Of a DNA stretch of 44,108 bases, positions 12,807-35,466 are shown in pieces. The notes under the pieces are model-generated. The model did no database searches. It had not been told where the DNA came from and saw only the letters and a list, made by a program, of their open reading frames with translations. The first letter of the stretch is position 1; each line of letters opens with the position of its first letter. The translations under genes were made by a program, and so were the position numbers. The DNA comes from a virus, in UHGV virus genome UHGV-0106768, one strand, 5' to 3'.

Positions 12807-12902
12807 CAATATACAGTCTGTATGATCCACCCCTTATTGACGACAGGAAGACGGCAAAGCGGCGACAATTCGGTTACGCCGCAAACCACGGAGGTGAAAA
12901 CT

Positions 12903-15808: not shown

Positions 15809-15846
15809 AAGTAGACTTTTCTCCGTATTTGCGCTGTTTTCCGCAG

Positions 15847-15936
15847 TTGGGGCAACGTGGGGCAAGTTTTTTCGGTGGTTATTATTATTACTTCTCTTTA
15901 TATATATTACTATTTTTACTTGCCCCTACTTGCCCC
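15847..15936. repeat. putative replication origin: two GGGGCAA repeats, AT-rich spacer, two inverted TTGCCCC repeats
   Basis: GGGGCAAG at 15859-15866 is the exact reverse complement of CTTGCCCC at 15919-15926 and 15929-15936; ~50 bp of >85% AT between; further CCTTGCC/GGCAAGG inverted pair at 16021-16076. Confidence 0.5.
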
Positions 15937-16114
15937 AAATAAATAAAAACAATAGAAAAGATAAGAAGAATAGAGGATTTTCACTGATTTGAACCATTAC
16001 CCATTTTGCACTGTTTTGAACCTTGCCCGATGCTGTCACTGACAAAGAGTGTGTAAGCGACAAAGCGTGGCAAGGTCAAAATCCAACGATCAATCATGCA
16101 GGAGGAACAAGAAT

Positions 16115-22005: not shown

Positions 22006-22319
22006 GAGCCAGACTGAAACCGCCGGGAGATGCCGTTCGCTGCGATGCCTGCGGATGTGCCTTTGTGCCGGAGCCGAAAATGCAGCGTGAGGGCGAGATC
22101 GAATACAGCTTCTTCAACTGTGATTACTGTGGCAAAGCGTATATCGTGTCTGTGACCGATGCCGCACTCCGCCGGAGCATCCGCAAGTACCGGACGCTTG
22201 CCGAAAAGCTGAAGGACAAGCCGCTGAGTGAAGAAACGCTCCGTGAAGTCACGGCGCTGAAGGATGCGAACACAAAAAGAGCCGCAGAGCTGCGGCAGAT
22301 GTATATACGGGAGGGATGA
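22002..22319 (+). CDS. zinc-ribbon hypothetical protein
   Basis: CDACGC...CDYCG; overlaps neighbours. Confidence 0.45.
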   Translation: MRARLKPPGDAVRCDACGCAFVPEPKMQREGEIEYSFFNCDYCGKAYIVSVTDAALRRSIRKYRTLAEKLKDKPLSEETLREVTALKDANTKRAAELRQMYIREG

Positions 22320-22320
22320 G

Positions 22321-23592: not shown

Positions 23593-24352
23593 AGTAAAAT
23601 GCGTTCTCATACACGACAATTTCCAGAATTACAAGGGCTACAGCATTCCGAGGGCACAGCTCGTCATTGCGGATATCCCGTATAACATTGGCGGAGATTT
23701 TTACGCAAGTCGCCCGGACTGGTATGTGAATGGCGACAATCAGAACGGCGAAAGCAGCAAAGCGCACAAGGCGGCATTCCACACGGACTACTCTTTCAAC
23801 ATCGCTGAGTATTTCGCATTCTGCAACCGACTGCTCAAAAAGGAACCGTCCAAAGGTGAAAAGGATGCTCCCTGCATGATCATGTTCTGCGCCTTCCAGC
23901 AGATCCCGGAGGTCATCCGGCAGGCGGAGAAATAAGGCTTCAAGCACTACCAGTTTTTATGCTTTATGAAGAACTACAGTCCGCAGGTGCTGAAAGCAAA
24001 CATGAGGATCGTTGGTGCTACCGAATATGCGCTGGTGCTGTATCGGGGCAAGCTGCCGAAGTTCCGCAATACCGATGCGGACGGCAAGCGGCACATGATC
24101 TTCGACCATTTCGACTGGGTGCGGGACGGCAAAGATATCCCGAAGATACATCCAAGCCAGAAGCCGGTGAATCTGCTGAAGCGCCTGATTGGGATATTTA
24201 CCGATGAGGGCGATGTGGTCATCGACCCCTGTGCGGGTTCAGGAAGTACACTGAGAGCCGCAAGAGAAATGGGACGCAACAGCTACGGCTTTGAGGTCAG
24301 CAGGGATTTCTATACCAAAGCCCGTGAGCAGATGCTCGGAGGTGCGGAATGA
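23579..24352 (+). CDS. N6/N4 DNA methyltransferase interrupted by in-frame TAA at 23933-23935
   Basis: Motif IV DIPY upstream of the stop; HPSQKP and motif I IDPCAGSGST downstream; same frame, continuous protein-like read-through (AEK * GFKHYQFLCFMKN). Confidence 0.65.
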
Positions 24353-24594: not shown

Positions 24595-26848
24595 CGGCTC
24601 CGGGGGCTTTCCGCTTGGTGGCATCCTCGCAGGGATCGAGCCAAGGTGGAGCAGCGAAATTGAACCTTTTCCGGTGCTTGTCACGCACAAGCGGCTGCCG
24701 CAGGTGCAGCACTACGGTGATGTATCTACGCTGAACGGCGCAGAGCTTCCGCCGGTGGATATCATCACCTTAGGCAGTCCTTGTCAGGACCTGTCTATTG
24801 CGGGCAAGCGTGCCGGAATCCATGACGGTGATCGGTCGAACCTGTTCTTTCAGGCGATCCGCATCATCAAAGAAATGAGGGATGCAACAAATGGACGATA
24901 TCCGCGATACTGCGTCTGGGAAAATGTCCCCGGCGCTTTCTCATCCAACGGAGGAAACGACTTCAAGGCTGTCCTCGAAGCAGTTATCGGAGTTAAAGAA
25001 AAAGGGATCGAGGTGCCTGCGCCTGAAAATCACAGATGGGCAAAATCAGACGTATATCTGGGAGACGGATGGAGCGTGGCTTACCGAGTTTTCGATGCTC
25101 AATACTGGGGTGTCCCCCAACGCAGAGCAAGAATCTACCTTGTCGCAGATTTTGCTGGCGAAAGTGCCGGAGAAATACTATTTAAGTCCGAAGGCGTGTC
25201 TTGGTATACTCCGCAGGGCTTCCGTGCGTGGCAAGGAGCTGCCGGAGGTGCTGAAGAAGGCACTGGAGAAACAGGCGGGCGGTCTGACGCTGGAGGTGGA
25301 ACCCTCTGCCTGAATACACAGGGCAACAGCGGCGTCGGCATCACCGAGGACAAGGCTCTCGCACTGGTCGCACAGGATCACGGGAATCATCCTGCCGTTC
25401 TTGCCGCAGGTTTTTCCACAGAGCATAGTGCAAAAGCACGCAGCATCGGATACGAGGAGGAAGTCTCCCCGACACTGAGAGCAGGTGTTGTTCCTGCGGC
25501 ACTCTCGGTCGAAAACCATCCGACAGACGGTCGTGTGAAGATCCGTGAGGACGACACCTGCCAGACACTTTGCAGCAGAGCCGGGACGGGCGGCAACAAT
25601 GTACCGCTTGTCGCTGAACCGATCACGCTGAAAATCAGGTCAGGCTGCGAAGGCGGCGGCAAGGGCGCTCTCTGGCAAACTGATAAATCTGCTACGCTTG
25701 CTACCAACAACAACCAGACACTCTTTCAGCCAGAGATCAAAGCCTTCGGTGTATGTAGCAAGCATTCCAATGCGATGATGTCAGACAATCCGCACAGTGG
25801 CTTTTACGAAGCGACCACGAGCAGAACGCTTGACCAGAGCGGTGGAAACTCCGTAACATCGAATCAGGGCGGCATCTGCGTGGTAGCACCTGCGCCGGAG
25901 ACATTCGATGTGCGTTTCACATCGGACGGCACGAAAAATGCTCGTGGGCATTGTTACCCGACAGACATTTCCCGATGCCTTGATACGAGCGAGGGATCGC
26001 CAGACTCGAATCACGGCGGTGTCGCTGTGGTGGCTCTTGAACCGGGGGCTGCATCACGTGTCGGCGGTCATGTGTACAGTGACGGCAAAAGCGGTACGCT
26101 TCGAGCCAATGCCGGCGATAATCAGCAGGCTGTTGTGGTCGCCGAGCCGGAGACCTATGCTCTGCAAGGCTCGATGATCGGTCGTGCCGACAAGAACGGT
26201 CCGCAGGGTGACGGCATCAATGAGGATGTGTGCTTTACGCTCAATACTTCAGACAGGCACGCTATTGCCGCACCCGATCCGTCTTTCACGATTTCCCGTG
26301 ACAATCACTTCGCCGTTTCGGAAGATATATCTGTTACGGCAGTTGCGAGAGGTCCTGCAACGGTCGCAGCCCCGGCAGATCACTACTGCACAAGCAAGAA
26401 TTCACACCACACGGTCGCTGTGCATGAGCAGGCAAACACGCTGGTCGCATCCGACTGGAAGGATCCGCCGCTTGTGAACGACCTTCCGAATGACGAGCCG
26501 GTATATATCGTAAGAAGGCTGACTCCGGTGGAGTGCGCCAGATTGCAGGGATTCCCGGACTGGTGGTGTGCCGACCTTGCGATTCCTGATCCTTCTGACG
26601 AGGAGATCGCCTTCTGGATGGAAGTATGGGAAACTTGGAGACAGATCACAAATCCCAAGGGCAAACCGAAAACGGAAAAGCAGATCCGCAAATGGCTGGC
26701 TAATCCGTACACGGACAGTGCCGAGTACAAGTTATGGGGCAACGGTGTCTCAGAGCCCGTTGTGTTCTTCGTGCTATCCGGCATTGCCTGGGCGGCACAG
26801 AATTCTGAAACTAATGCAGCAAATTGTGAACATTCTGATACTATGTAA
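24557..26848 (+). CDS. DNA (cytosine-5) methyltransferase, unusually long, probably multispecific
   Basis: Motif I LFDGSGG, motif IV GSPCQDLS, motif VI ENVPG, C-terminal motif IX/X RRLTPVECARLQGFPDWW; ~450-aa variable region between catalytic and C-terminal motifs. Confidence 0.85.
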   Translation: MDHTTMTLGSLFDGSGGFPLGGILAGIEPRWSSEIEPFPVLVTHKRLPQVQHYGDVSTLNGAELPPVDIITLGSPCQDLSIAGKRAGIHDGDRSNLFFQAIRIIKEMRDATNGRYPRYCVWENVPGAFSSNGGNDFKAVLEAVIGVKEKGIEVPAPENHRWAKSDVYLGDGWSVAYRVFDAQYWGVPQRRARIYLVADFAGESAGEILFKSEGVSWYTPQGFRAWQGAAGGAEEGTGETGGRSDAGGGTLCLNTQGNSGVGITEDKALALVAQDHGNHPAVLAAGFSTEHSAKARSIGYEEEVSPTLRAGVVPAALSVENHPTDGRVKIREDDTCQTLCSRAGTGGNNVPLVAEPITLKIRSGCEGGGKGALWQTDKSATLATNNNQTLFQPEIKAFGVCSKHSNAMMSDNPHSGFYEATTSRTLDQSGGNSVTSNQGGICVVAPAPETFDVRFTSDGTKNARGHCYPTDISRCLDTSEGSPDSNHGGVAVVALEPGAASRVGGHVYSDGKSGTLRANAGDNQQAVVVAEPETYALQGSMIGRADKNGPQGDGINEDVCFTLNTSDRHAIAAPDPSFTISRDNHFAVSEDISVTAVARGPATVAAPADHYCTSKNSHHTVAVHEQANTLVASDWKDPPLVNDLPNDEPVYIVRRLTPVECARLQGFPDWWCADLAIPDPSDEEIAFWMEVWETWRQITNPKGKPKTEKQIRKWLANPYTDSAEYKLWGNGVSEPVVFFVLSGIAWAAQNSETNAANCEHSDTM

Positions 26849-26925
26849 GCTGTTCTGTATGGGCTTTCCGTGATATGCACAATCTCAGGGGCGTAAAAGC
26901 CCCGTACACTCTACGATTTACAGTC

Positions 26926-26954
26926 TTGATATATCCGCCGTAATGGCGTAATAT
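26926..26954 (+). promoter_or_regulatory. sigma-70-type promoter P1 (TTGATA-17-TAATAT)
   Basis: Consensus-like hexamers with 17-bp spacer ~55 nt upstream of ATG 27011. Confidence 0.6.
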
Positions 26955-27010
26955 GTGACTACCGCAAGGGAAAACCGAGCGGAATCAAAAACGAAACGGA
27001 GGATTCACAT

Positions 27011-28132
27011 ATGAAAACTTATGCAATGATCATTGGAAACCGCAAGGAACTCACAAAGAGAATCGAGGCACTCACCGGAGAGCGCAGCGTATACACCTTC
27101 ATGCCGAGATGCGCCTATGAGATCGGGGCATTCGCAGTCGAGAAGGACGGCACACTTACGGCACAGGACGATGCCGACCAGAGCGTGATCGACACCCTGA
27201 GAGCCGAGGGTATGATCGGTGGTGAGATCATCGCAGAGAGCATCAAGGCAGTCGAGCCGGAGCAGACCGATGAGACCGCAGAGCCGGAACAGCCTGCACC
27301 GCCCGTAAGCACCGATGAATGGGACGATGATGAGGATGACGACGATGAGAACAGCGTCGAGGGCGAGAATGCGGAAGCGGAAGAGCCGGAGGAGTCCGAA
27401 GAAAATGCCGATAAGTCGGAGCCTTCCGCAGAGCCAGAAGCCGCACCTCCTGCGACCGAGGATGCCTGGGATGATGAACCGGAGGATGAACCCGGCGACG
27501 AGCCGGAAGAAACCACCGAGCTTCCTGAACCGCTGACCGCAGAGATCAGCTTCCCGCTGAGCCATCACACGGTGCAGAGCCTTACAAACCTCATCTGCAT
27601 GATCCACTCCCGCGGCGCACTTCTCAGCAAGGCAACCGGCGGACAGTTTTACGCTGACAAGAGCCTCGCCGATGCGATCCTCGATGACAAGACCTTCCGC
27701 AGCATTCACGAGCTGATCGCCTACATCAGAGAATGGGAGGAGACGAATCCTGAACTGAAGGGCATCCGCTTCGCCGATGACAAGCTAATCTTTGACGGCT
27801 TCGGTGCAGCGCAGGATGCCGAAACGGTGCAGACCTTCACCAAGCTCGCCACAGCCATGAACAGGATGGCGATCACGCAGAAACGTGTGCAGGCAAAGGA
27901 TGTCGATGACAGCAACGAAAAGTACGCACTCCGCATCTGGCTGATCCGCCTTGGGCTGAACGGCGCAGACTGCAAGGTTGACCGCAAGCGCCTCATGGCT
28001 CCGCTTTCCGGACACACCGCATTCCGCAACGATGCGGAGCGTGTGCGCTGGGAGGCAAAGCAAAAGGCAAAGCGTGATGCTGCCAGAACCGAACTGACCG
28101 AGGAGGATGAAAACGATGCAGTTTCCGAATGA
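27011..28132 (+). CDS. acidic protein with amidoligase-like C-terminal module
   Basis: 373 aa; long D/E-rich tract (DEWDDDEDDDDENSVEGENAEAEEPEESEEN...); C-terminal ~70 aa align with the C-terminus of the 28562 amidoligase. Confidence 0.6.
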   Translation: MKTYAMIIGNRKELTKRIEALTGERSVYTFMPRCAYEIGAFAVEKDGTLTAQDDADQSVIDTLRAEGMIGGEIIAESIKAVEPEQTDETAEPEQPAPPVSTDEWDDDEDDDDENSVEGENAEAEEPEESEENADKSEPSAEPEAAPPATEDAWDDEPEDEPGDEPEETTELPEPLTAEISFPLSHHTVQSLTNLICMIHSRGALLSKATGGQFYADKSLADAILDDKTFRSIHELIAYIREWEETNPELKGIRFADDKLIFDGFGAAQDAETVQTFTKLATAMNRMAITQKRVQAKDVDDSNEKYALRIWLIRLGLNGADCKVDRKRLMAPLSGHTAFRNDAERVRWEAKQKAKRDAARTELTEEDENDAVSE

Positions 28133-28364
28133 AAGACAGCTCAGAGCCTTGCGGGAGCGTTATCCCGCAGGAACCCGCATCCGACTGAAGCATATGGATG
28201 ACCCTTATGCACCCGTACCGCCCGGCACGGTCGGAGAGGTTCAGATGGTCGATGACGGCGGCAACATACACATGGTCTGGGAGAATGGCAGAACGCTCTC
28301 CCTTATAGACGGTGTCGATGATTTCCAAGTCATTTCTGACCGCAATGGGGGCTCCGGAAAATAA
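28116..28364 (+). CDS. DUF4314-like small protein
   Basis: MQFPNERQLRALRERYPAGTRIRLKHMDDPYAPVPPGTVGEV...; GAGGAGGA RBS 9 nt upstream of ATG 28116. Confidence 0.5.
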   Translation: MQFPNERQLRALRERYPAGTRIRLKHMDDPYAPVPPGTVGEVQMVDDGGNIHMVWENGRTLSLIDGVDDFQVISDRNGGSGK

Positions 28365-28477
28365 GAGATCCTATTCCATTGTATCCGAGTATACCATAGA
28401 ATTTCAAGTATATCAAGTGTACACATACACCAGATATGAGCAATGTATTTTCCTCGATATTCTGTGGTTTTAGCGGC

Positions 28478-28506
28478 TTGCTATATCCTCCGAAAGACGG
28501 TAACAT
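28478..28506 (+). promoter_or_regulatory. promoter P2 (TTGCTA-17-TAACAT)
   Basis: Same architecture as P1; followed by conserved leader with GGGC-AAAC-GCCC hairpin. Confidence 0.6.
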
Positions 28507-28561
28507 GTGACACAACGGAAGGGCAAACGCCCACCGAAAAACCGAATCGGAGGATACCAAA

Positions 28562-29506
28562 ATGACTGAGAAAACCGCACAGCAGATCAACAGAATGAAG
28601 GAGCAGACCATCGGGGTTGAGATCGAGATGAACAACATCACCCGCAAGGCTGCCGCAAAGCTCGCCGCCAACTTCTTCGGCACCAGCCGCACCGAGTACA
28701 CCGCACACCGCAACGGCTACGAAACCTACAGCGCATGGGATGCACAGGGCAGAGAGTGGAAATTCCAGAAGGACGTCAGCATCGCAGGCCCCGACAGCGA
28801 AAAGTGCGAACTGGTCACACCGATCCTGCACTACGCAGACATCGAAACCCTGCAGGAGCTTGTGAGAAGGCTCAGAAAGGCAGGAGCGCGCAGTGATTAC
28901 ACGCGGGGATGTGGAGTCCACTGCCACATTGGAGCCCAGGGACACACACCGCAGACCTTGAGAAACCTCGCAAACCTGATGGCAAGCCACGAAACCCTGA
29001 TCGCCGAGGCAATCAGAGTAGACCAGAGCAGAATGCGCCGCTACTGCAGAACAGTTGACCCGAGATTCCTTGAACAGCTCAACCGCAAAAAGCCCACCAC
29101 GATGGCACAGCTTGCGGACATCTGGTACGGCGCACAGGGCTGCGAATACGGCAGAACCCACCACTACAACGACAGCCGCTATCACATGCTCAACCTCCAC
29201 GCTACCTTCACCAAAGGCACGGTCGAGTTCAGACTTTTCCAGTTCGCACCGCCTTCCAACGGCAAGCAGAACGGGCTCCACGCAGGCAAGCTCAAGAGCT
29301 ACATTCAGCTCTGCCTCGCAATGAGCCAGATGGCAAAGGACCTGCGGAGCGCCAGCCCCAAGGAACAGCAGAAGGAAAACAAAAAGTTCGCCATGCGGAC
29401 TTGGCTGATGAGAATGGGATTCATCGGGGACGAATTCGCAACCGCAAGGGAAACCCTCACCGAGAACCTTACAGGCGACAACAGCTTCCGCTTCGGCAGA
29501 CCTTAA
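28562..29506 (+). CDS. Amidoligase_2-family enzyme (glutamine-synthetase-like amidoligase)
   Basis: N-terminal IGVEIEMN motif characteristic of the family; 314 aa. Confidence 0.65.
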   Translation: MTEKTAQQINRMKEQTIGVEIEMNNITRKAAAKLAANFFGTSRTEYTAHRNGYETYSAWDAQGREWKFQKDVSIAGPDSEKCELVTPILHYADIETLQELVRRLRKAGARSDYTRGCGVHCHIGAQGHTPQTLRNLANLMASHETLIAEAIRVDQSRMRRYCRTVDPRFLEQLNRKKPTTMAQLADIWYGAQGCEYGRTHHYNDSRYHMLNLHATFTKGTVEFRLFQFAPPSNGKQNGLHAGKLKSYIQLCLAMSQMAKDLRSASPKEQQKENKKFAMRTWLMRMGFIGDEFATARETLTENLTGDNSFRFGRP

Positions 29507-29709
29507 AGCCTGCCCTGCGGGGCGGAAGAACAAGCGGAACGTCACGGCGGCGCACACAGCACCCTCATCGCCACGTGTGGGGCGGAAGGGTATCCTCCGA
29601 ACACATACCCAACTCAGTCAACCGAGCCACACAGCGCAAATGTAGGCAAGGCATAAAATGCACAACATACGGCACAGAATCGCCCTCGATGATCTGTTCA
29701 TTTACTCGC

Positions 29710-29738
29710 TTGATAATGCCGCCGAAAAGAGTTAACAT
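29710..29738 (+). promoter_or_regulatory. promoter P3 (TTGATA-17-TAACAT)
   Basis: 17-bp spacing; upstream of ATG 29778. Confidence 0.6.
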
Positions 29739-29777
29739 GGCACTACCGCAAGGAAAAAACGCAAAGGAGAACATAGC

Positions 29778-30239
29778 ATGAACAAGAAAAAATACTACAT
29801 AGCCTACGGCAGCAACCTCAACATCCGCCAGATGCGGTTCCGCTGCCCAGGCGCAAAGCCCATCGGCATTTCCGCGATTCCTGACTACGAACTGCTCTTC
29901 AAGAGCAGCAAGACGGGAGCGTACCTCACCATCGAGCCGAAGGACGGCGGGCTTGTTCCGGTCGCCGTGTGGGAAGTGACAGCCGACGATGAGAAGCACC
30001 TCGACATCTACGAGGGCTACCCGAACTTCTACTACAAAAAAGAAGTACGCCTGCCGATCAAGCTGGCAAACGGCAAGACCAAAAAGGTCACGGCATTTGT
30101 CTACATCATGCACGAGGAGCGTGAGATTGCGATCCCGTCAATGACCTACATCCGCACCTGCGAGGAAGGCTACCGCAACTTCGGATTTGATGTGAAGTAC
30201 CTTGACAGGGCATACATGAGAAGCACAAAGGAGGACTGA
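29778..30239 (+). CDS. gamma-glutamyl cyclotransferase-like (AIG2/GGCT family) protein
   Basis: N-terminal YIAYGSNLN motif and EGYP motif. Confidence 0.65.
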   Translation: MNKKKYYIAYGSNLNIRQMRFRCPGAKPIGISAIPDYELLFKSSKTGAYLTIEPKDGGLVPVAVWEVTADDEKHLDIYEGYPNFYYKKEVRLPIKLANGKTKKVTAFVYIMHEEREIAIPSMTYIRTCEEGYRNFGFDVKYLDRAYMRSTKED

Positions 30240-30241
30240 AA

Positions 30242-30445
30242 ATGAAAGAACAGGTTTTTGAGAAGCGTACATGTCCGCAATGCGGACGCACCTACACCGA
30301 GCGTCCTGCCCTATCCCGCTACGACAACGACACGATCATCTGCCCGGACTGCGGCACGAGGGAGGCACTCGAAAGCATGGGCATCAGCATCGAGGAACAG
30401 GACAAGATCCTCGGCATCATCCACGAGAAGTACAACGGCGAATAA
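30242..30445 (+). CDS. small zinc-ribbon protein
   Basis: CPQCG...CPDCG; starts 3 nt after the GGCT stop (same operon). Confidence 0.55.
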   Translation: MKEQVFEKRTCPQCGRTYTERPALSRYDNDTIICPDCGTREALESMGISIEEQDKILGIIHEKYNGE

Positions 30446-30453
30446 GGCGACAT

Positions 30454-30475
30454 AAAGGGGCGTTACAGCCCCTTT
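30454..30475 (+). terminator. terminator hairpin (AAAGGGGC / GCCCCTTT)
   Basis: 8-bp GC-rich stem 9 nt after the stop; weak U-tract. Confidence 0.5.
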
Positions 30476-30517
30476 CCGCATTCTCAGGGATAACTTTATC
30501 CCCCACTTTCCGGGCGT

Positions 30518-30553
30518 GACACGGCGCGTTCTGGCGCAAACTGTGGGCTTGTG
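30518..30553. repeat. cassette boundary repeat, partial copy (i)
   Basis: Core GACACGGCGCGTTCTGGCGC...TGTGGGCTTG shared with copies at 32212, 33081, 34408. Confidence 0.5.
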
Positions 30554-30617
30554 TATATGTACCTGTTCAGCTTGCTGAAAACGGCGATTCTTCTACGATT
30601 TATTTTGCATATAGGCG

Positions 30618-30646
30618 TGGACATATCGCCGGGATCATGGTAATAT
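30618..30646 (+). promoter_or_regulatory. promoter P4 (TGGACA-17-TAATAT with extended -10 TG)
   Basis: Upstream of ATG 30705. Confidence 0.6.
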
Positions 30647-30704
30647 GCTACACAACGGCAGGGGCAGACAGCCCACCGGAATTCATAACATGGAGGATAC
30701 GAAC

Positions 30705-31175
30705 ATGAACGAAAGCTACTTTGAGGAGATGACCTTCCAGTGCGCCGCCTATGAACGCGCCAAAAAGGAGCGCGCCGAGCGCAAGGCTCAGATTGCCGAA
30801 GCCCACGGCTACGACAGCCCGGAGATGGACGCTTGGTACGCTGAGGAGAAGGCGGCGGGTCCTTACCCCTACAGCGGCGGTGAGATGAAAGCCTACTGGG
30901 TGTACAAGATGCGCCGCGAGAACGACGGTGACGAGTTCGAGATGAGCGATTACTGCTGGGACAAGGAATTCCACGATTTCATCGAAACGCTCCGCAAGCT
31001 AGGCATCACCGAGTTCACGATCACCAATCAGAGCACGGCGCTGATGGAGAACATCTACGGATTTATTGCAGAAGGCTGCACGATGGTCGGAACGCACACC
31101 ATCACCAAGAAGAGCCTGCGCTGGAGCGAGGAAGAATACGAAACGGCACAGGGCATCCTTTTCAAGGTGAACTGA
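30705..31175 (+). CDS. hypothetical protein
   Basis: ATG 30705 with GGAGGA RBS (in-frame ATG 30690 sits inside the RBS). Confidence 0.55.
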   Translation: MNESYFEEMTFQCAAYERAKKERAERKAQIAEAHGYDSPEMDAWYAEEKAAGPYPYSGGEMKAYWVYKMRRENDGDEFEMSDYCWDKEFHDFIETLRKLGITEFTITNQSTALMENIYGFIAEGCTMVGTHTITKKSLRWSEEEYETAQGILFKVN

Positions 31176-31183
31176 TATCGACA

Positions 31184-31220
31184 GGAGCAGGGCTTCGGCT
31201 CTGCTCCCCCTCCCCCTTTT
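31184..31220 (+). terminator. rho-independent terminator
   Basis: 10-bp stem GGAGCAGGGC / GCTCTGCTCC with TTCG loop, followed by CCCCCTCCCCCTTTTCC. Confidence 0.7.
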
Positions 31221-31293
31221 CCTCATGTGTAACTCCTACAATACGAAAGGCTGAGATCGGCGATTCTTCTACGTTTTATTTTGCACATAGGCG

Positions 31294-31322
31294 TGGACTT
31301 ATCAGCAGGATCATGGTAATAT
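31294..31322 (+). promoter_or_regulatory. promoter P5 (TGGACT-17-TAATAT, extended -10)
   Basis: Upstream of ATG 31378. Confidence 0.6.
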
Positions 31323-31377
31323 GTGACACAACGGAAGGGCAGAACGCCTACCGAAAAACGAAACGGAGGATAACACC

Positions 31378-31698
31378 ATGAACCCCTACACACTGAGAAA
31401 GAGCCTGAACCTGATTGATGCCAACACGGCGATCACCCGCGAGGACTTCGAGAGCCTCTTCTGCAAGACTGCAGAGCGTGTCACCTTTACCTTCAACGGT
31501 TGGGACGGCAAGAGCTATGATGGCGAGAGCCGCAGCGGTTACGTTTACCGCACCATCATCGAGGGCTACGAGAATGTGAGATTCGTTAAGGTCGGCAAGG
31601 GACTGCATTACATCGATGAGGACAGCAGCATTACCGAGAAGGCTACGGGCATCGCCCACAAGGAAGCAGAGTGGCTGGTCGATGTGAAGAGAGCATAA
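31378..31698 (+). CDS. hypothetical protein
   Basis: 106-aa ORF with ACGGAGGA RBS. Confidence 0.55.
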   Translation: MNPYTLRKSLNLIDANTAITREDFESLFCKTAERVTFTFNGWDGKSYDGESRSGYVYRTIIEGYENVRFVKVGKGLHYIDEDSSITEKATGIAHKEAEWLVDVKRA

Positions 31699-31763
31699 GC
31701 AAAACAGCGGAGCCCTTCCTGCGGGGAGGGCTTACCGCAGAAAAAACATGGAGGTTTACGAAC

Positions 31764-32147
31764 ATGAGTACGAATTCAAGAGTCGGAATCCTGCATCAGG
31801 ACGGCGCCACGGAGACAATCTACTGCCATTGGGACGGCTACCCCGAACACCAGATGCCCATCCTCACCGAGCATTATAACACCGCCGAGAAGGTCAAGGC
31901 ACTGCTTGCCCTTGGAGACATCAGCATCCTCGGCGAGCGCCTTGCTCCCGATGCGGATGAGCCGCACAGCTTTGAAAAGCCTGCCGATGGTGTGACGGTT
32001 GCTTACCACCGCGACCGCAAAGAGCCGATGCAGCCTGCGGTCACCCACAAGAGCGTTGTTTCCCTGATGAGCGATGACTGGGGCATTCCGTATTACTACC
32101 TTTTCGATGAGGAAAAAGGAGCATGGCTTCCGCCGACCGAGGACTGA
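31764..32147 (+). CDS. hypothetical protein
   Basis: ATG 31764; translation-initiation region AACATGGAGGTTTACGAACATG nearly identical to that of the 30705 gene. Confidence 0.55.
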   Translation: MSTNSRVGILHQDGATETIYCHWDGYPEHQMPILTEHYNTAEKVKALLALGDISILGERLAPDADEPHSFEKPADGVTVAYHRDRKEPMQPAVTHKSVVSLMSDDWGIPYYYLFDEEKGAWLPPTED

Positions 32148-32211
32148 TAGGTTCAGCCCTGCGGTGCTGACTTGCCCCACGTTGTCCTTTGTGCGGTTTT
32201 CCTGCGATAAG

Positions 32212-32269
32212 CTTGCCCCTGCGGAAAGCCGCCTCACACGGCGCGTTTGTGTGCCTCCTGTGGGCTTGG
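32212..32269. repeat. cassette boundary repeat, copy (ii)
   Basis: CTTGCCCCTGCGGAAAGCCGCCTCACACGGCGCGTTTGTGTGCCTCCTGTGGGCTTGG. Confidence 0.55.
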
Positions 32270-32327
32270 TGCTATGTATACAACAAATGGCGCAGATACG
32301 CCGATTTTGTTCTGAACATTTAGCCGC

Positions 32328-32356
32328 TTGCTATTCCGGAAAGATCATGGTAATAT
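32328..32356 (+). promoter_or_regulatory. promoter P6 (TTGCTA-17-TAATAT, extended -10)
   Basis: Upstream of ATG 32413. Confidence 0.6.
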
Positions 32357-32412
32357 GCTACACAACGGAAGGGCAAACGCCCACCGAATACAAAACACGG
32401 AGGTAAACCACC

Positions 32413-32778
32413 ATGACAAAGAAGGAAATGAAAGCCGCAGTTGACAAGCTGAAGATGCTGCAGAACGGCAAAGCCGCCCTTGAGGGAATGACCGAAGCGG
32501 ACTGCCTTGAGCTTTTCGGGATCAGCAGAGCGCAGGCACTTGCAAACACAAACGCCGCCCTTGCCAAAACCGAGCAGGAGATTTTCAGAGCCGAGCATCC
32601 GCTGACAGGCATCGACAAACAGCTCTTCGAGATCGCAGCAAAGCACCTGATCACGGTGCAGGAGCGCGGAGACCTTGAAGCCCGCCACTGCGACAGCGAG
32701 GACTTCATCGAGGTTTCGGTCTGGGGGCTGGAAGCCGCCCTCAAGGATGCCTACGAGGCAGGACGCAAGAGCAAGTAA
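32413..32778 (+). CDS. hypothetical protein
   Basis: 121-aa ORF with ACGGAGG RBS. Confidence 0.55.
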   Translation: MTKKEMKAAVDKLKMLQNGKAALEGMTEADCLELFGISRAQALANTNAALAKTEQEIFRAEHPLTGIDKQLFEIAAKHLITVQERGDLEARHCDSEDFIEVSVWGLEAALKDAYEAGRKSK

Positions 32779-32843
32779 CCAAACGGAACAGCGCAGCCCT
32801 TCCGCAGGGAGGAGGGGCTGCCAATCCCGAAGGAGGAAAGAAC

Positions 32844-33023
32844 ATGGATACATACGCACAGCTTGAAATGCTGACCGCAGTCATCGCAAACCTGTCGGCC
32901 ACGGGAACATGGACGGAGCGAGAAGTGATGGAAACGCTGCTGGATGTCTTTGAACCGAAGGAGCTTGAACAGCTCGGCTACGGCGACTGCGTGAACGCAT
33001 ACTTGGAAGAGTACGGCGGATAG
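32844..33023 (+). CDS. small hypothetical protein (59 aa)
   Basis: Below ORF-track cutoff; GAAGGAGGA RBS 7 nt upstream of ATG 32844; ends TAG 33021-33023. Confidence 0.4.
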   Translation: MDTYAQLEMLTAVIANLSATGTWTEREVMETLLDVFEPKELEQLGYGDCVNAYLEEYGG

Positions 33024-33080
33024 CGACGACACACGCACCACGTTGCCTCGTGTGGGGCGGTGCCGGGGAGATGCGTACAG

Positions 33081-33124
33081 CTTGCCCCTGCGAAAAGCCG
33101 CCTTACACGGCGCGTTCTGGCGCG
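33081..33124. repeat. cassette boundary repeat, copy (iii)
   Basis: CTTGCCCCTGCGAAAAGCCGCCTTACACGGCGCGTTCTGGCGCG. Confidence 0.55.
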
Positions 33125-33193
33125 TCCTATACGATGTACAATTCCGCCCGACTTCCCGCCTCATGTTTGTCACATTTATTTTGCAGACAGACG

Positions 33194-33222
33194 TGGACTT
33201 TTCTGCGAAAAGACGGTAATAT
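33194..33222 (+). promoter_or_regulatory. promoter P7 (TGGACT-17-TAATAT)
   Basis: Upstream of ATG 33270. Confidence 0.6.
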
Positions 33223-33269
33223 GTGACTACCGCAAGAGAAGCGGAATCAATCAAAAGGAGCGAATCTAC

Positions 33270-33623
33270 ATGAAAATTCTGGTATGCGAACCCGGCAAGC
33301 ACCCCTACGTCAAGGACATCGAGTCGGGGCTGGAGAACCTTCAGCACGAGGTGGACGGACTGATTCAGGCCCTCTACCCATTTTCCGAAGAGGCGGCTGT
33401 TGTGTGCAACGAAGAAGGGCTGTTCCGCGATGACCTCGAATGGAACAGAACGGTCGATCCCTATGGTCCGATCAAGGGAACATTCTTCATTTGTGGGCTC
33501 GGCTTTGAAGATTTTACAGGACTGACCGATGAACAGATCGAAAAGTACACTAAGCTCTTCTGGCCTCCTGAGCTTTTCATCCCGACACCGAACGGCATGG
33601 TGGTGCTTCACATTGTGGAATGA
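33270..33623 (+). CDS. DUF3846-like protein
   Basis: MKILVCEPGKHPYVKDIESGLENLQHEVDG...VVCNEEGLF pattern; AAAAGGAG RBS. Confidence 0.55.
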   Translation: MKILVCEPGKHPYVKDIESGLENLQHEVDGLIQALYPFSEEAAVVCNEEGLFRDDLEWNRTVDPYGPIKGTFFICGLGFEDFTGLTDEQIEKYTKLFWPPELFIPTPNGMVVLHIVE

Positions 33624-33631
33624 CCGCAACA

Positions 33632-33655
33632 GGGGCAGGGCTTCGGCTCTGCTCC
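33632..33655 (+). terminator. terminator-like hairpin (near-duplicate of the 31184 stem)
   Basis: GGGGCAGGGC / GCTCTGCTCC with TTCG loop, 9 nt after the stop; no clear U-tract. Confidence 0.45.
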
Positions 33656-33726
33656 GCACCATTCCCCGGTCATAATGTACACAACTGAACGCCGAAAAAT
33701 GCAGAAATGATCGTGATTACTCACGC

Positions 33727-33755
33727 TTGATAATGTAGGCAAGAAGAGTTATACT
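33727..33755 (+). promoter_or_regulatory. promoter P8 (TTGATA-17-TATACT)
   Basis: Upstream of ATG 33813. Confidence 0.6.
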
Positions 33756-33812
33756 GTGTACAACGGAAGGGCGGAAAGCCCAGCCGAAAACGAAAATGCG
33801 GAGGTACACACC

Positions 33813-33992
33813 ATGAAAACGAAGCAGGAACTGATCGAGAAGGCAAAGAAAGAGTGGGGCGAGACTTGGAACGAGGGCATGATCGAGTACGATGCCGAGT
33901 ACAACGAGTACATCGTCTGGGTAGGCAAGCCGGACATCTACAAAGCCTTCTTCGATGCCGACACCCTCAGATGCATTGGCACGAAGTGCTGA
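33813..33992 (+). CDS. small hypothetical protein (59 aa)
   Basis: ATG 33813 with GCGGAGG RBS. Confidence 0.45.
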   Translation: MKTKQELIEKAKKEWGETWNEGMIEYDAEYNEYIVWVGKPDIYKAFFDADTLRCIGTKC

Positions 33993-34047
33993 GAACAACC
34001 GCCGCCCTTCGGGGCGGCACAACACCAATACTAAGGAGGACATTTAC

Positions 34048-34321
34048 ATGAGCGAGAACACAGAAAAGCGCGATGCAGCCGAAGAACTAAGAACTTACCG
34101 ATGCACAGGCAGACCGCAACGATGACATCTACGAGGCAGCTTTTGAATTCTGCAAGGTGCTGACCGAGAACCCCGACCTCGAATGGGACATGGCGTTCCT
34201 CGGTGAGATCGCCGACCTTGCCGCTGGCATCATGACCGAGCAGGGACACAAGGTGCGGTTCCCCAGTGTGGTCACCGAGCAGGACGGCACGCAGTACATT
34301 GAAGAATACTACGGCGGCTGA
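34048..34321 (+). pseudogene. small gene disrupted by a 7-bp tandem duplication (frameshift)
   Basis: ATG 34048 with AAGGAGGA RBS; AAGAACT repeated in tandem at 34082-34095 shifts the frame; removing one copy gives a continuous ~89-aa ORF ending at TGA 34319-34321. Confidence 0.55.
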
Positions 34322-34407
34322 TCGGCAAAACGGAGCAGTCCTTCTGCGGAGGGGCTGTTCCACGCCACGTTCGCTTGTGTGGGGGGCTTACGGCTTTCTG
34401 CGGATAT

Positions 34408-34464
34408 CTTGCCCCGCGATAAAAGCCGCCCACACGGCGCATTTGTGTGCCTCCTGCGGCAAGG
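34408..34464. repeat. cassette boundary repeat, copy (iv)
   Basis: CTTGCCCCGCGATAAAAGCCGCCCACACGGCGCATTTGTGTGCCTCCTGCGGCAAGG; flanked by CTTGCC/GGCAAG inverted ends. Confidence 0.55.
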
Positions 34465-34522
34465 CATAATATGTACAACAACCGACAAAAAATCACCTTG
34501 CACATTCTGGTAGTTTAGCCGC

Positions 34523-34551
34523 TTGATATATCTGCCGAAAAGAGTTATAGT
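34523..34551 (+). promoter_or_regulatory. promoter P9 (TTGATA-17-TATAGT)
   Basis: Upstream of ATG 34608. Confidence 0.6.
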
Positions 34552-34607
34552 GTGTACAACGGAACGGGAAACCGAGCCGAAAACTACGAAAGAACGAGGT
34601 AAACACT

Positions 34608-34844
34608 ATGTGGCACGAAGGCACGATTCTGGCACCGACCAAGGAAGGCAAGACGGTGGTTCACTACTGGGCAAAGGTCTACGACGAGGGCAGCCAGTAC
34701 GGCATCAACGAGGGCAGAATCAGTAAACTGACACTCAAGGAGAATGGCAAGGTCATCTACAACTACGACAGAGGCGAGGATGTACCCGAGCAGAACGAGG
34801 CTGCGGAGATTGCCCTTGCGATCCTGATGTACGAGTACAAGTAA
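34608..34844 (+). CDS. hypothetical protein
   Basis: 78-aa ORF; last gene before the packaging module. Confidence 0.5.
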   Translation: MWHEGTILAPTKEGKTVVHYWAKVYDEGSQYGINEGRISKLTLKENGKVIYNYDRGEDVPEQNEAAEIALAILMYEYK

Positions 34845-34932
34845 ATAGAACGGTCGGTGGGCGGTAGCATTAAGCCGCCCATCCAAACCAAGACGGACAC
34901 ACATATAAATTCAAGGTGGATATACATAGGAG

Positions 34933-34962
34933 AGGCTTGCAGTTTTGCAGGCCTTTTCTTTA
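34933..34962 (+). terminator. terminator-like hairpin plus T-tract immediately upstream of terS
   Basis: AGGCTTGCA / TGCAGGCCT stem (one G-U pair), GTTT loop, then TTTTCTTT; only ~25 nt before the terS start. Confidence 0.4.
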
Positions 34963-34992
34963 TGCACATTTTTATTGGAAGGAGTGATGCGG

Positions 34993-35466
34993 ATGGCTCA
35001 GAGAGGCAGAAAACCAACGCCTACGGCGATCAAAGAGCTGGAAGGCAATCCGGGCAAGCGTCCGCTGAATGATGCAGAGCCGAAGCCGGAACGCAAGGCA
35101 CCGCCCTGTCCGAAGTGGCTGGAGCCCGAAGCAAAAAAGGAATGGCGCAGGCTGTCAAAGCAACTGGAGCAGATTGGTGTGCTGACCGAGGTCGATCAGG
35201 CGGCATTCGCATCCTACTGTCAGGCATACGCACGATGGAAAGAAGCCGAGGAATTCATGACCCAGCACGGCACGATCGTAAAAACAAAATCAGGTTACTG
35301 GCAGCAGGTTCCGCAGGTATCCATTGCGCAAACTTATCTGAAGATCATGAACAAGATCGCAGAGCAGTTTGGCCTGACCCCGGCGGCAAGAAGCCGTATC
35401 ACTGCCGGCGCAGATATGAAAAACGCTGCCGTTGACGATATGGATGAACTTCTCGGAGGTGGCTGA
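34993..35466 (+). CDS. terminase small subunit (P27 family)
   Basis: GRKPTPTAIKELEGNPGKRPLN...AFASYCQAYARWKEAEEF...FGLTPAARSRI pattern; GGAAGGAG RBS; in-frame ATG also at 34987. Confidence 0.75.
   Translation: MAQRGRKPTPTAIKELEGNPGKRPLNDAEPKPERKAPPCPKWLEPEAKKEWRRLSKQLEQIGVLTEVDQAAFASYCQAYARWKEAEEFMTQHGTIVKTKSGYWQQVPQVSIAQTYLKIMNKIAEQFGLTPAARSRITAGADMKNAAVDDMDELLGGG

What the first reader, a model, noticed from the sequence alone, without database searches (positions are those of the whole stretch)
26880..34850. Array of nine near-identical promoter and structured-leader cassettes driving small accessory genes
Between the methyltransferase genes and terS, nine promoters (-35 at 26926, 28478, 29710, 30618, 31294, 32328, 33194, 33727, 34523) all have exactly 17-bp spacers and near-consensus hexamers (TTGATA/TTGCTA/TGGACT then TAATAT/TAACAT/TATACT/TATAGT). 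Five are followed by a leader ACAACGGAAGGGC-loop-GCCCACCGAAAA, in which the loop varies (AAAC, AGACA, AGAAC, GGAAA) while the GGGC/GCCC stem is kept; the other four carry a related ACTACCGCAAGG / GGGAAACCGAGC-type leader. Each cassette carries one to three small genes (DUF4314-like, amidoligase, GGCT-like, DUF3846-like, several unknowns) and most end in hairpins. This modular, individually promoted layout is unlike the operon structure of the rest of the window. It fits an anti-defence or host-takeover locus with a shared cis-regulatory leader (RNA structure or protein-binding site), possibly assembled by cassette shuffling.
Basis: seen in the sequence. Interest (0 to 1): 0.85.

Follow-up and report, generated by a model that had tools for sequence, protein, structure and literature searches.

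The report
Phage accessory-gene array with portable promoter-leader units
A rumen Ruminococcus phage carries, just before its DNA-packaging genes, nine small gene cassettes, each with its own copy of one portable promoter and hairpin-leader unit; relatives gain, lose and swap these cassettes, much as in the known T4 "PeSL" and phage "moron" systems.

Summary
Nine co-oriented units (-35, exact 17-bp spacer, -10, about 40-58-nt leader, GGAGG ribosome site, ATG) lie at the stated coordinates. A profile of them hits nowhere else in the 44-kb window.

The unit is a lineage-wide family. About 320 further copies occur in 85 viral contigs and in Ruminococcus flavefaciens/Oscillospiraceae assemblies, always in one-strand arrays of 3-10 units between a C5 methyltransferase gene and terS.

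In diverged orthologous cassettes the hexamers stay 81-97% identical, while spacers drift like or faster than third codon positions. This points to working sigma-A-type promoters.

Eight of nine window leaders, and 83% of 155 distinct leaders (12% of shuffles), form a two-tier hairpin starting 7-9 nt after the -10. Stems covary, loops vary from 3 to 8 nt, and wobble variants are 6 G.U to 0 A.C. This indicates an RNA structure. It is absent from Rfam.

The spacers also hold a second repeat, a roughly 110-nt long hairpin I call IGE. A crossover inside it removes cassettes 7 and 8 in close relatives.

The most likely role of the leader hairpin is a 5'-terminal stabiliser or insulator. That role is inferred, not shown. 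The anti-defence reading is untested because the cargo proteins are domains of unknown function. Verdict: a new variant of a known kind (PeSL or moron-like mobile regulatory cassettes), of moderate interest.

The parts
26926..27010 (+). Cassette 1 promoter and leader: -35 TTGATA 26926-26931, -10 TAATAT 26949-26954, hairpin 26962-26982 (CCGC-AA-GG-GAAAA-CC-GA-GCGG)
28478..28561 (+). Cassette 2 promoter and leader: TTGCTA-17-TAACAT, hairpin 28516-28536 (CGG-AA-GGGC-AAAC-GCCC-A-CCG)
29710..29777 (+). Cassette 3 promoter and short leader: TTGATA-17-TAACAT, no hairpin
30618..30704 (+). Cassette 4 promoter and leader: TGGACA-17-TAATAT with ATGn extended -10, hairpin 30656-30678
31294..31377 (+). Cassette 5 promoter and leader: TGGACT-17-TAATAT, hairpin 31332-31353 (GGGC/GCCT, one G.U pair)
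32328..32412 (+). Cassette 6 promoter and leader: TTGCTA-17-TAATAT, hairpin 32366-32386
33194..33269 (+). Cassette 7 promoter and leader: TGGACT-17-TAATAT, simple hairpin 33230-33244 (CCGC-AAGAGAA-GCGG)
33727..33812 (+). Cassette 8 promoter and leader: TTGATA-17-TATACT, hairpin 33764-33786
34523..34607 (+). Cassette 9 promoter and leader: TTGATA-17-TATAGT, hairpin 34560-34579 (CGG-AA-CGG-GAAA-CCG-AG-CCG)
27011..28364 (+). Cargo 1: a 373-aa protein with a long acidic linker (matches the middle of PHROG 2443 'amidoligase enzyme'; its C-terminal 70 aa resemble the C-terminus of the cassette-2 amidoligase), plus DUF4314 (28107-28364)
28562..29506 (+). Cargo 2: Amidoligase_2 (PF12224)
   Evidence: E 9e-56
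29778..30445 (+). Cargo 3: GGACT/AIG2-like gamma-glutamyl cyclotransferase (29778-30239) plus a 67-aa zinc ribbon (30242-30445)
30705..31175 (+). Cargo 4: DUF7698 (start at the ATG after the GGAGG site, not the longer mechanical ORF from 30645)
31378..32147 (+). Cargo 5: a 106-aa unknown protein (31378-31698) plus a 127-aa PHROG 1987 protein (31764-32147). The second gene has its own promoter unit in some relatives
32413..33023 (+). Cargo 6: DUF6900 (32413-32778) plus a 59-aa unknown protein (32844-33023)
33270..33623 (+). Cargo 7: DUF3846
33813..34321 (+). Cargo 8: a 59-aa unknown protein (33813-33992) plus an ORF broken by one extra A (34048-34321)
34608..34844 (+). Cargo 9: DUF7678. In most relatives this is the last cassette before terS
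32174..32286 (+). IGE copy upstream of promoter 6: a long irregular hairpin, a short hairpin and a TATGTATACAAC box
33035..33144 (+). IGE copy upstream of promoter 7. It is the left partner of the crossover that deletes cassettes 7 and 8 in relatives
34362..34481 (+). IGE copy upstream of promoter 9. It is the right partner of that crossover
30505..30565 (+). Partial IGE (3' half only) upstream of promoter 4. Coordinates are approximate. A more degenerate relic lies at about 29565-29665
   Evidence: (family D9)
33678..33701 (+). Decayed -10/start/leader relic (ATAATGTACACAAC...CCGAAAAA) upstream of promoter 8. Similar relics end the IGEs
   Evidence: (E 0.019)
34928..34960 (+). The only canonical intrinsic terminator of the array (14-bp GC stem plus a T run), between cassette 9 and terS
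   Evidence: z -5.9

Best explanation
This is the hypervariable accessory-gene region of a Ruminococcus-type tailed phage. It is built from autonomous cassettes. Each cassette is a promoter of the host sigma-A type, a standard leader, one to three small genes, and GC-rich hairpins after the genes.

Shown here: the promoter hexamers and their spacing are under purifying selection. The leader carries a hairpin that is conserved as a structure and starts 7-9 nt after the -10, which is 1-4 nt from the predicted RNA 5' end. The same promoter-leader unit sits in front of about 20 unrelated cargo families. Arrays in relatives differ by whole cassettes, and one deletion is mapped to a crossover between two copies of the spacer repeat IGE.

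Inferred: host RNA polymerase fires all nine promoters without phage factors, either early in infection or from the prophage. The 5'-terminal hairpin protects the transcripts from 5'-end-dependent decay (RNase J or RNase Y in Firmicutes). It also keeps the leader from pairing with whatever cargo follows, so any captured gene is expressed in the same way. The repeated regulatory DNA provides the homology by which cassettes are exchanged. The strong terminator at 34928-34960 keeps this transcription out of the packaging and late genes.
For: - The profile of the unit hits only these nine sites in the window, all on the + strand. About 320 more copies occur in 85 viral loci, and in 82 of 84 loci all units lie on one strand.
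- The arrays sit in the same position, between the C5 methyltransferase gene and terS.
- In diverged orthologous cassettes the hexamers are 81-97% identical, the 17-bp spacer 41-90%, and third codon positions 56-84%.
- Eight of nine window leaders fold with z scores of -2.3 to -3.2; cassette 7 is weaker.
- 129 of 155 distinct leaders have a hairpin starting 7-9 nt after the -10, against 12% of shuffles.
- Seven of nine pairs show changes on both sides, in 49 cells, and no shuffle of 500 reached this (the alignment was fitted to the structure).
- On an alignment not fitted to the structure, the outer stem shows a GC to CG swap at 23:10, again with no shuffle of 500 reaching it.
- Single-substitution stem variants are 6 G.U to 0 A.C.
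- The same unit precedes about 20 cargo families.
- Cassettes 7 and 8 are deleted in L052, L078 and L065 by a crossover inside the IGE sequence AAAGCCGCC.
- Blocks of similarity start in the spacers and stop at the leader or ATG more often than expected: 40% against 16%, and 32% of right-hand ends against 7%.
- 5'-proximal hairpins stabilise mRNA in Bacillus. This is established knowledge from the aprE and ermC leaders and from RNase J1 studies, and I recall it rather than having read it here.
Against: - No transcription data exist. The start sites, the timing and the sigma factor are predictions.
- The phage encodes a protein with sigma-70 region 4 (2648-3397) that could read these promoters instead of the host sigma-A.
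- About 17% of leaders, including cassette 3, lack the hairpin, so it is not essential.
- The invariant AA bulge and the constant flanks are not needed for a simple stabiliser and hint at specific recognition.
- RNAalifold on a plain MAFFT alignment predicts no structure.
- Much of the covariation may come from a few ancestral events.
- Some indels are illegitimate and not repeat-mediated.
- The block-end enrichment is partly produced by paralogous repeat matches.
Confidence: 0.6

Rival explanations
1. The leader hairpin is an RNA operator. A trans-acting protein, from the phage or the host, binds the hairpin with its AA bulge on every cassette transcript and co-regulates them. The protein could be a translational repressor, a targeting site for a nuclease, or an N/boxB-type antiterminator that lets transcription run through the hairpins between cassettes, which lack U tracts.
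For: - The AA internal loop and the flanks AC(A/T)AC and GAA(A/T) stay constant while both stems covary.
- The hairpin sits directly after the promoter, as nut sites do.
- Hairpins without U tracts follow nearly every gene, and one strong terminator closes the array.
- The phage encodes a MazF/PemK-like RNase (12822-13388).
Against: - Loop length and sequence vary freely (3-8 nt), whereas boxB-type loops are the recognised part.
- No boxA-like conserved element was seen.
- Each cassette has its own promoter, so read-through is not required.
- No candidate RNA-binding partner was identified.
- About 17% of units lack the hairpin.
Confidence: 0.2
2. The promoters are read by the phage's own sigma-like protein, so the array is a middle or late class rather than an immediate-early or lysogenic class.
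For: - A 249-aa protein with sigma-70 region 4 is encoded at 2648-3397.
- The -10 is almost always TAATAT rather than TATAAT across hundreds of copies.
Against: - The hexamers and the 17-bp spacing fit sigma-A (8-10 of 12), and some units have an extended -10.
- The unit is absent upstream of terS and of every other operon in the window, where a phage sigma would be expected to act.
- A strong terminator insulates the late genes from the array.
Confidence: 0.12
3. The palindrome acts in double-stranded DNA as an operator for a dimeric repressor sitting on the transcription start.
For: - It is an inverted repeat located at about +5 to +25.
- A second TGTACAA-type box lies 50-60 bp upstream of several promoters.
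Against: - The arms covary instead of keeping a half-site sequence.
- The distance between the arms changes by up to 5 bp, and the stem length ranges from 4 to 9 pairs.
- Wobble variants are 6 G.U to 0 A.C, which matters only for RNA of the + strand.
Confidence: 0.05
4. The array is an integron-like, site-specific cassette system in which the IGE hairpins play the part of attC sites.
For: - Imperfect long hairpins lie between cassettes.
- Cassettes are present or absent between relatives, and IGE itself is facultative at a given junction.
Against: - No recombinase gene was found in the 44-kb window.
- The cassettes carry their own promoters.
- The order of the GTT and AAC motifs is the reverse of attC R''/R'.
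- The mapped junction is a plain homologous crossover in a 9-nt identical stretch, and another is a 3-nt microhomology deletion.
Confidence: 0.03

Closest known systems
PeSLs (promoter-early stem-loops) of T4-type phages (Arbiol et al. 2010, PMC2839356; Comeau et al. 2014, PMC4122927)
   Same: Both are repeated composite regulatory units, with a strong host-type promoter, an A/T-rich upstream stretch, a stable stem-loop and a Shine-Dalgarno site. Both flank small genes of unknown function in a hyperplastic region. In both, close relatives differ by cassette indels whose junctions lie inside the repeats.
   Different: This is an unrelated phage lineage (a Firmicutes host, with a DUF2800/PolA/D5 replication module) and the sequences are unrelated. 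Here the conserved, covarying hairpin lies downstream of the promoter in the 5' leader. The upstream hairpins (IGE and the post-gene hairpins) lack U tracts, and their terminator activity is untested. Mini-circles were not tested.
Morons (Juhala et al. 2000; Hendrix et al. 2000; as summarised in PMC6316719)
   Same: Both are autonomous transcription units (promoter, gene, hairpin) inserted between conserved genes, variably present among related phages, and often next to the packaging genes.
   Different: Classical morons are single, unrelated insertions. Here nine lie in tandem and share one homologous promoter-leader family. Expression from the prophage is not shown.
SPO1 host-takeover module (Stewart et al. 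1998, as described in PMC6873191)
   Same: Both are in a Firmicutes phage and form a dense cluster of small genes in many short operons, with promoters and ribosome sites typical of highly expressed early genes.
   Different: The SPO1 module lies in the terminal redundancy of a large lytic myovirus and its host-shutoff functions are demonstrated. Here the timing, the entry order and the functions are all unknown, and relatives occur as prophages.
5'-terminal stabiliser hairpins (B. subtilis aprE and ermC leaders, E. coli ompA, T7 phi10 leader; recalled from established literature, not read here)
   Same: Each is a short stable hairpin within a few nucleotides of the mRNA 5' end that does not occlude the ribosome site.
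   Different: There is no sequence relationship. The 5' end here is only predicted. The invariant AA bulge has no counterpart in those examples.
Lambda nut/boxB antitermination sites
   Same: Each is a small GC stem with a purine-rich loop placed just downstream of an early promoter.
   Different: Here the loop is not conserved, there is no boxA, there are nine copies per genome rather than two, and no N-like protein was identified.
Leading-region anti-defence islands of conjugative plasmids (Samuel et al. 2024, PMC11541004)
   Same: Both are arrays of small accessory genes at the DNA end expected to enter the cell first.
   Different: The plasmid islands use single-strand (Frpo-type) promoters formed by hairpins. 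Here both hexamers lie on one strand at duplex spacing, and the element is packaged by a terminase. No known anti-defence family was detected in the cargo.

Membership tests
PeSL-type mobile regulatory cassette | Repeated strong host-sigma (sigma-70/sigma-A-like) promoter with an A/T-rich upstream region | tested here: met
   Nine copies with a 17-bp spacer and an upstream ATTTAG or TTTATTTTGCA stretch. The hexamers are conserved against drifting spacers.
PeSL-type mobile regulatory cassette | Stem-loop in the same unit that acts as a terminator for upstream transcription | tested here: inconclusive
   Stable hairpins precede the promoters (post-gene hairpins and IGE), but almost none has a U tract. 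Activity is not testable here.
PeSL-type mobile regulatory cassette | Concentrated in a hyperplastic region next to small genes of unknown function | tested here: met
   The units occur only at 26.9-34.6 kb of the window, and the cargo is mostly domains of unknown function.
PeSL-type mobile regulatory cassette | Indels between close relatives with junctions inside the repeated units | tested here: met
   Window 33117-34364 is absent in L052, L078 and L065, with the crossover in the shared IGE sequence AAAGCCGCC. One other deletion is illegitimate.
PeSL-type mobile regulatory cassette | Formation of excised mini-circles | not testable with these tools
   This needs inverse PCR on infected cells.
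Moron | Promoter, ORF and terminator forming an independent unit between conserved genes, variably present in related phages | tested here: met
   The terminator part is only hairpin-like.
Moron | Expressed from the repressed prophage | not testable with these tools
   Relatives lie in R. flavefaciens scaffolds of 220-783 kb, but no expression data are available.
Early-entry anti-defence or host-takeover locus (T7 0.3, T5 pre-early region, SPO1 module) | Cargo belongs to known anti-defence or host-shutoff families | tested here: not met
   Pfam, PHROGs, the PDB sequence search and the literature search give only domains of unknown function, an amidoligase and a GGACT protein.
Early-entry anti-defence or host-takeover locus (T7 0.3, T5 pre-early region, SPO1 module) | Located on the DNA end that enters first and transcribed first | not testable with these tools
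   The position directly upstream of terS fits 'packaged last, ejected first', but the termini and the timing are unknown.
Lambda-type nut site | Conserved boxB loop plus boxA, and an N-like protein | tested here: not met
   The loop varies from 3 to 8 nt with no conserved sequence. No boxA-like block appears in alignment A1.
Integron attC cassette array | Integrase, promoterless cassettes and R''/R' core sites at the cassette ends | tested here: not met
   No recombinase was found in the window. Every cassette has a promoter. The junctions are a homologous crossover or a microhomology deletion.
Any Rfam family | Match to a curated covariance model | tested here: not met
   There were no hits at gathering score in the whole window. 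Only chance-level hits at E of 0.75 or higher were found in 26800-35000.

The most novel reading that the evidence does not exclude
The promoter-leader unit and the IGE together form a phage-borne 'plug-and-play' expression platform. In this reading the hairpin, with its invariant AA bulge, is an RNA operator read by a dedicated trans-acting factor that switches the whole accessory set on or off after transcription. The IGE hairpins would be processing or exchange sites that delimit cassettes. That would make it functionally analogous to an integron, but promoter-equipped and driven by homologous recombination.
Probability: 0.15. Interest if true: 0.75.

Novelty: new variant of a known kind. 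Interest (0 to 1): 0.5.

Why it matters
It extends the idea of 'mobile regulatory cassettes', so far documented for T4-type phages of Gram-negative hosts, to siphovirus-like phages and prophages of rumen and gut Clostridia. It adds a feature not described for PeSLs: a structurally conserved 5' leader hairpin shared by about 20 unrelated cargo families.

The family has more than 300 copies and a clear covariation pattern, and it is absent from Rfam. It is therefore ready to be curated as an RNA motif.

The array marks a defined hotspot, between the methyltransferase gene and terS, where these phages keep exchangeable genes of unknown function. That makes it a practical place to look for counter-defence or lysogenic-conversion functions in an uncultured phage group. 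The unit may also be useful as a compact, context-independent expression element for Clostridia.

Tried and rejected
- **Rfam.** Nothing at gathering score or at a permissive E-value.
- **Generic sigma-70 and terminator scan.** Not above chance, and it flags only 5 of the 9 promoters. The evidence comes from the repeat family, not from this scan.
- **RNAalifold on a plain MAFFT alignment of 35 leaders.** No structure was predicted, because variable loops misalign the 3' arms. I used single-sequence folds, an N-padded structural alignment, and pair counts on the unfitted alignment.
- **The best 150 hits to my covariance model of the leader hairpin (R1).** These are too uniform to show much covariation.
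- **The IGE core CTTGCCCC as a protein site shared with the iteron-like region at 15.85-15.94 kb.** The 8-mer is enriched (8 against 1.4 expected). In relatives, however, the iterons change (CTTGCTACA, TTGTCGCA) while the IGE of the same contigs keeps TTGCCCC. I rejected the link.
- **IGE acting as RNA of the + strand.** There is no strand asymmetry in folding energy, so this is unresolved.
- **attC-like or Frpo-like single-strand promoter readings.** I rejected these on motif order, on both hexamers lying on one strand, and on packaging by a terminase.
- **Cargo function.** Pfam and PHROGs gave no functional family beyond the amidoligase and GGACT, the PDB sequence search found no significant match, and one paper mentions DUF3846 only in passing. 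I did not run structure prediction, because the alignments available were shallow.
- **Annotated phage collection.** Only the amidoligase gene matches, at 77%. That phage, NatCom_991, has an amidoligase and a GGCT gene before terL but none of the promoter or IGE units.

Full report
**Observation.**
The region 26.9-34.9 kb contains nine units with the same plan. Each has an A/T-rich stretch, a -35 (TTGATA, TTGCTA or TGGACW), exactly 17 bp, a -10 (TAATAT, TAACAT, TATACT or TATAGT), a 39-58-nt leader, a GGAGG-type ribosome site and an ATG. All nine are on the + strand and all lie in gaps between ORFs. A profile built from the nine finds no further copy anywhere in the 44-kb window on either strand. 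A generic sigma-70 scan is not informative on its own: it found 16 sites against 12.7 expected and flagged only five of the nine. The hexamers match the consensus at 8-10 of 12 positions, so 'near-consensus' is a little generous. The flanks are a C5 methyltransferase gene and a Terminase_4 small subunit gene.

**Setting.**
Every gene in the window is on the + strand. Upstream lie a replication and nucleotide-metabolism module:
- DUF2800 nuclease, Enc34-type SSB, family A polymerase, SNF2 helicase and D5-type primase-helicase;
- SAM synthetase, NrdD/NrdG and three methyltransferase ORFs.

The window also encodes a protein with sigma-70 region 4 and a MazF/PemK-like protein. Downstream come terS, terL, portal and capsid genes. 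The leader pattern occurs in assemblies of Ruminococcus flavefaciens and of rumen Oscillospiraceae and Clostridia, including R. flavefaciens scaffolds of 220 and 783 kb. At least some relatives therefore appear to be prophages.

**The unit is a family, not a local duplication.**
An exact leader pattern retrieved 85 stretches from the viral contig collection. The promoter profile then found about 320 units in them at E below 0.01, which reduce to 155-166 distinct sequences. In 82 of 84 loci all units lie on one strand. Where the flanks are present, the arrays of 3-10 units lie between the C5 methyltransferase gene and terS, and DUF7678 is usually the last cassette. The first genes downstream of the units fall into about 20 unrelated protein families.

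**The promoters look functional.**
I compared orthologous cassettes that have diverged, with third codon positions 56-84% identical. The two hexamers remain 81-97% identical, whereas the 17-bp spacer is 41-90% identical and its length never changes. This is the signature of selection on a sigma-A-type promoter. In three families the spacer is less conserved than silent sites. The same cargo also occurs behind TTGATA-type and TGGACT-type promoters. Both points indicate promoter swapping.

**The leader hairpin.**
- Eight of the nine window leaders fold into a hairpin. Seven have z scores of -2.3 to -3.2, cassette 7 is weaker, and cassette 3 has no hairpin.
- Taking units defined by the promoter alone, 129 of 155 distinct leaders have a hairpin that starts 7-9 nt after the -10, against 12% of shuffled leaders.
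- The architecture is an outer stem of 3-4 pairs, an AA internal loop on the 5' side, an inner stem of 2-5 pairs and a loop of 3-8 nt.
- The stems differ between variants:
  - outer stem: CGG/CCG, CCGC/GCGG, CCGG/CCGG, CCG/CGG or GGC/GCC;
  - inner stem: GGGC/GCCC, GGC/GCC, CGG/CCG or AGGC/GCCT.
- On a structure-guided alignment, seven of nine pairs show changes on both sides (49 cells). No shuffle of 500 reached the observed covariation, and sliding the 3' partners by even one column abolishes it.
- That alignment was fitted to the structure. I therefore also counted the outer stem on a plain MAFFT alignment. The middle pair is G-C in 23 sequences and C-G in 10, with 2 unpaired, and again no shuffle of 500 reached the observed value.
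- Single-substitution variants of the common stem are six G.U and no A.C. This asymmetry makes sense only for RNA of the + strand, although the six are not all independent events.
- Variable arm spacing and covarying arms argue against a double-stranded operator.
- Rfam has no such family.
- My covariance model finds the six CGG-type leaders in the window, nothing significant elsewhere, and one weak hit at 33678-33701 that is a decayed leader relic.

**What lies between cassettes.**
Nearly every gene, including those inside a cassette, is followed by a GC-rich hairpin, often with a CTTCGG-type loop and almost never with a U tract. The only canonical terminator is at 34928-34960, just before terS (z -5.9).

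Three spacers carry a second repeat of about 110 nt, which I call IGE (32174-32286, 33035-33144, 34362-34481). Two more spacers hold partial copies. IGE occurs 182 times in the related loci, up to six times per locus. It has strongly conserved blocks (CCACGTTCGC, GTGTGGGGC, GATAAC-TTGCCCC, CCGCCCCACAC and ATGTACAA). It folds into one long irregular hairpin, with a mean z of -2.3, equally well on either strand. Its 3' end looks like a worn -10/start region of the promoter unit. IGE is facultative: the promoter of one cargo family has it in some relatives and not in others. Its function is unresolved.

**Cassette turnover.**
- Close relatives (91-99% identical) differ by whole cassettes.
- L052, L078 and L065 lack window 33117-34364 (cassettes 7 and 8). 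The junction is a crossover within the identical stretch AAAGCCGCC of two IGE copies.
- L010 and L022 additionally lack 32255-32868. That deletion joins a 3-nt microhomology and truncates a gene.
- In more distant relatives the promoter-leader of cassettes 3, 4 and 5 is joined to different cargo. Similarity stops at the ribosome site or the ATG.
- Ends of similarity blocks are enriched in the spacers (40% against 16% expected). Right-hand ends are enriched at the leader or ATG (32% against 7%). Paralogous repeat matches contribute to this figure.
- Leader variants mostly track the cargo family, so the cassette as a whole is the unit of inheritance.

**Mechanism.**
Shown: a family of portable promoter-leader units with a selected RNA hairpin, placed in front of diverse cargo in a syntenic hotspot, with repeat-mediated and illegitimate cassette loss.

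Inferred:
- Host sigma-A polymerase drives the units.
- The hairpin lies 1-4 nt from the predicted 5' end. It stabilises the transcripts against 5'-dependent decay and standardises the leader whatever the cargo.
- The repeats supply the homology for exchange.
- The final terminator shields the late genes.

I put this reading at about 0.6 overall. The stabiliser role alone I put at about 0.4, because the invariant AA bulge and flanks also fit a specific RNA-binding factor (about 0.2).

Whether the array is early-lytic or lysogenic cannot be told. Its position directly upstream of terS would make it the last DNA packaged and the first ejected, if packaging starts at terS and runs rightwards as in lambda and SPP1. 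That is general knowledge and was not tested here.

**Cargo.**
No known anti-defence or host-shutoff family was detected. The amidoligase and GGACT pair recurs in Clostridia prophages (PMC11318856) and in Acutalibacteraceae phage NatCom_991, again just before the terminase gene but without these regulatory units. The anti-defence idea is therefore plausible by position only.

**Comparison and novelty.**
The closest concept is the PeSL of T4-type phages (PMC2839356, PMC4122927). Morons and the SPO1 host-takeover module are the other near analogues (PMC6316719, PMC6873191).

The present system shares their logic. It differs in four ways: it belongs to another lineage; all nine units are homologous; the conserved hairpin lies in the 5' leader; and it has the extra IGE element. 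I class it as a new variant of a known kind. The finding is real and well delimited, and it is of moderate interest.

Noticed in passing
window 34048-34321: The second gene of cassette 8 is broken by one extra A (GAACTAAGAAC, against GAACTAGAAC in the 97%-identical relative L069). Intact homologues of about 92 aa exist in L042, L024 and L071. This is either a real pseudogene or an assembly error.
   Followed up: yes
window 35960-36664 (within terL 35466-38132): terL is 888 aa and carries a LAGLIDADG_3 domain. About 705 nt are absent from several close relatives (L052, L073, L078) and present in others (L069, L010, L036). This is an intein-like or homing-endonuclease insertion in the ATPase domain. 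Its boundaries were not defined.
   Followed up: partly
window 15809-16048: This is an AT-rich non-coding region after the D5 primase-helicase gene. It holds direct and inverted ACTTGCCCC repeats (a 21-nt inverted pair, 86% complementary). In relatives the repeat sequence changes (CTTGCTACA, TTGTCGCA, CTTTCCCAT) at the same position. That behaviour fits an iteron-type replication origin.
   Followed up: partly
window 28378-28416, minus strand: Two overlapping promoter-like sites matching 10 of 12 positions (TTGATA-17-TATACT with TG; TTGAAA-18-TACAAT) point leftwards in the AT-rich spacer between cassettes 1 and 2, antisense to DUF4314. They could be chance matches in AT-rich DNA or an antisense promoter.
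   Followed up: no
window 12822-13388: The phage encodes a 188-aa protein with a PemK/MazF endoribonuclease domain (residues 65-176) and an N-terminal extension. No antitoxin partner was identified.
   Followed up: no
window 2648-3397 and 2034-2345: A 249-aa protein has sigma-70 region 4 only. It is preceded by a 312-nt AT-rich non-coding region with two hairpin and T-run terminators. This is probably the phage's regulatory switch region, and it may supply the late-gene activator.
   Followed up: no
window 23966-24352: A 128-aa ORF matches only the C-terminal half of the N6_N4_Mtase domain. It lies just after the ParB-fused N6 methyltransferase gene (22264-23592). It may be a gene fragment or a split gene.
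   Followed up: no
window 27011-28132 and 28562-29506: The 373-aa cassette-1 protein has a roughly 110-aa strongly acidic linker. Its C-terminal approximately 70 aa resemble the C-terminus of the neighbouring amidoligase (31% identity, E 6e-10). It matches the middle of the 801-position PHROG 2443 profile, as if one long amidoligase-family protein had been split or had lost domains.
   Followed up: partly
window 34845-34992: Only about 30 nt separate the strong terminator from the terS ribosome site, and no promoter unit is present. The late promoter, or a promoter-plus-terminator arrangement that needs an antiterminator or activator, must lie within 34860-34930.
   Followed up: no
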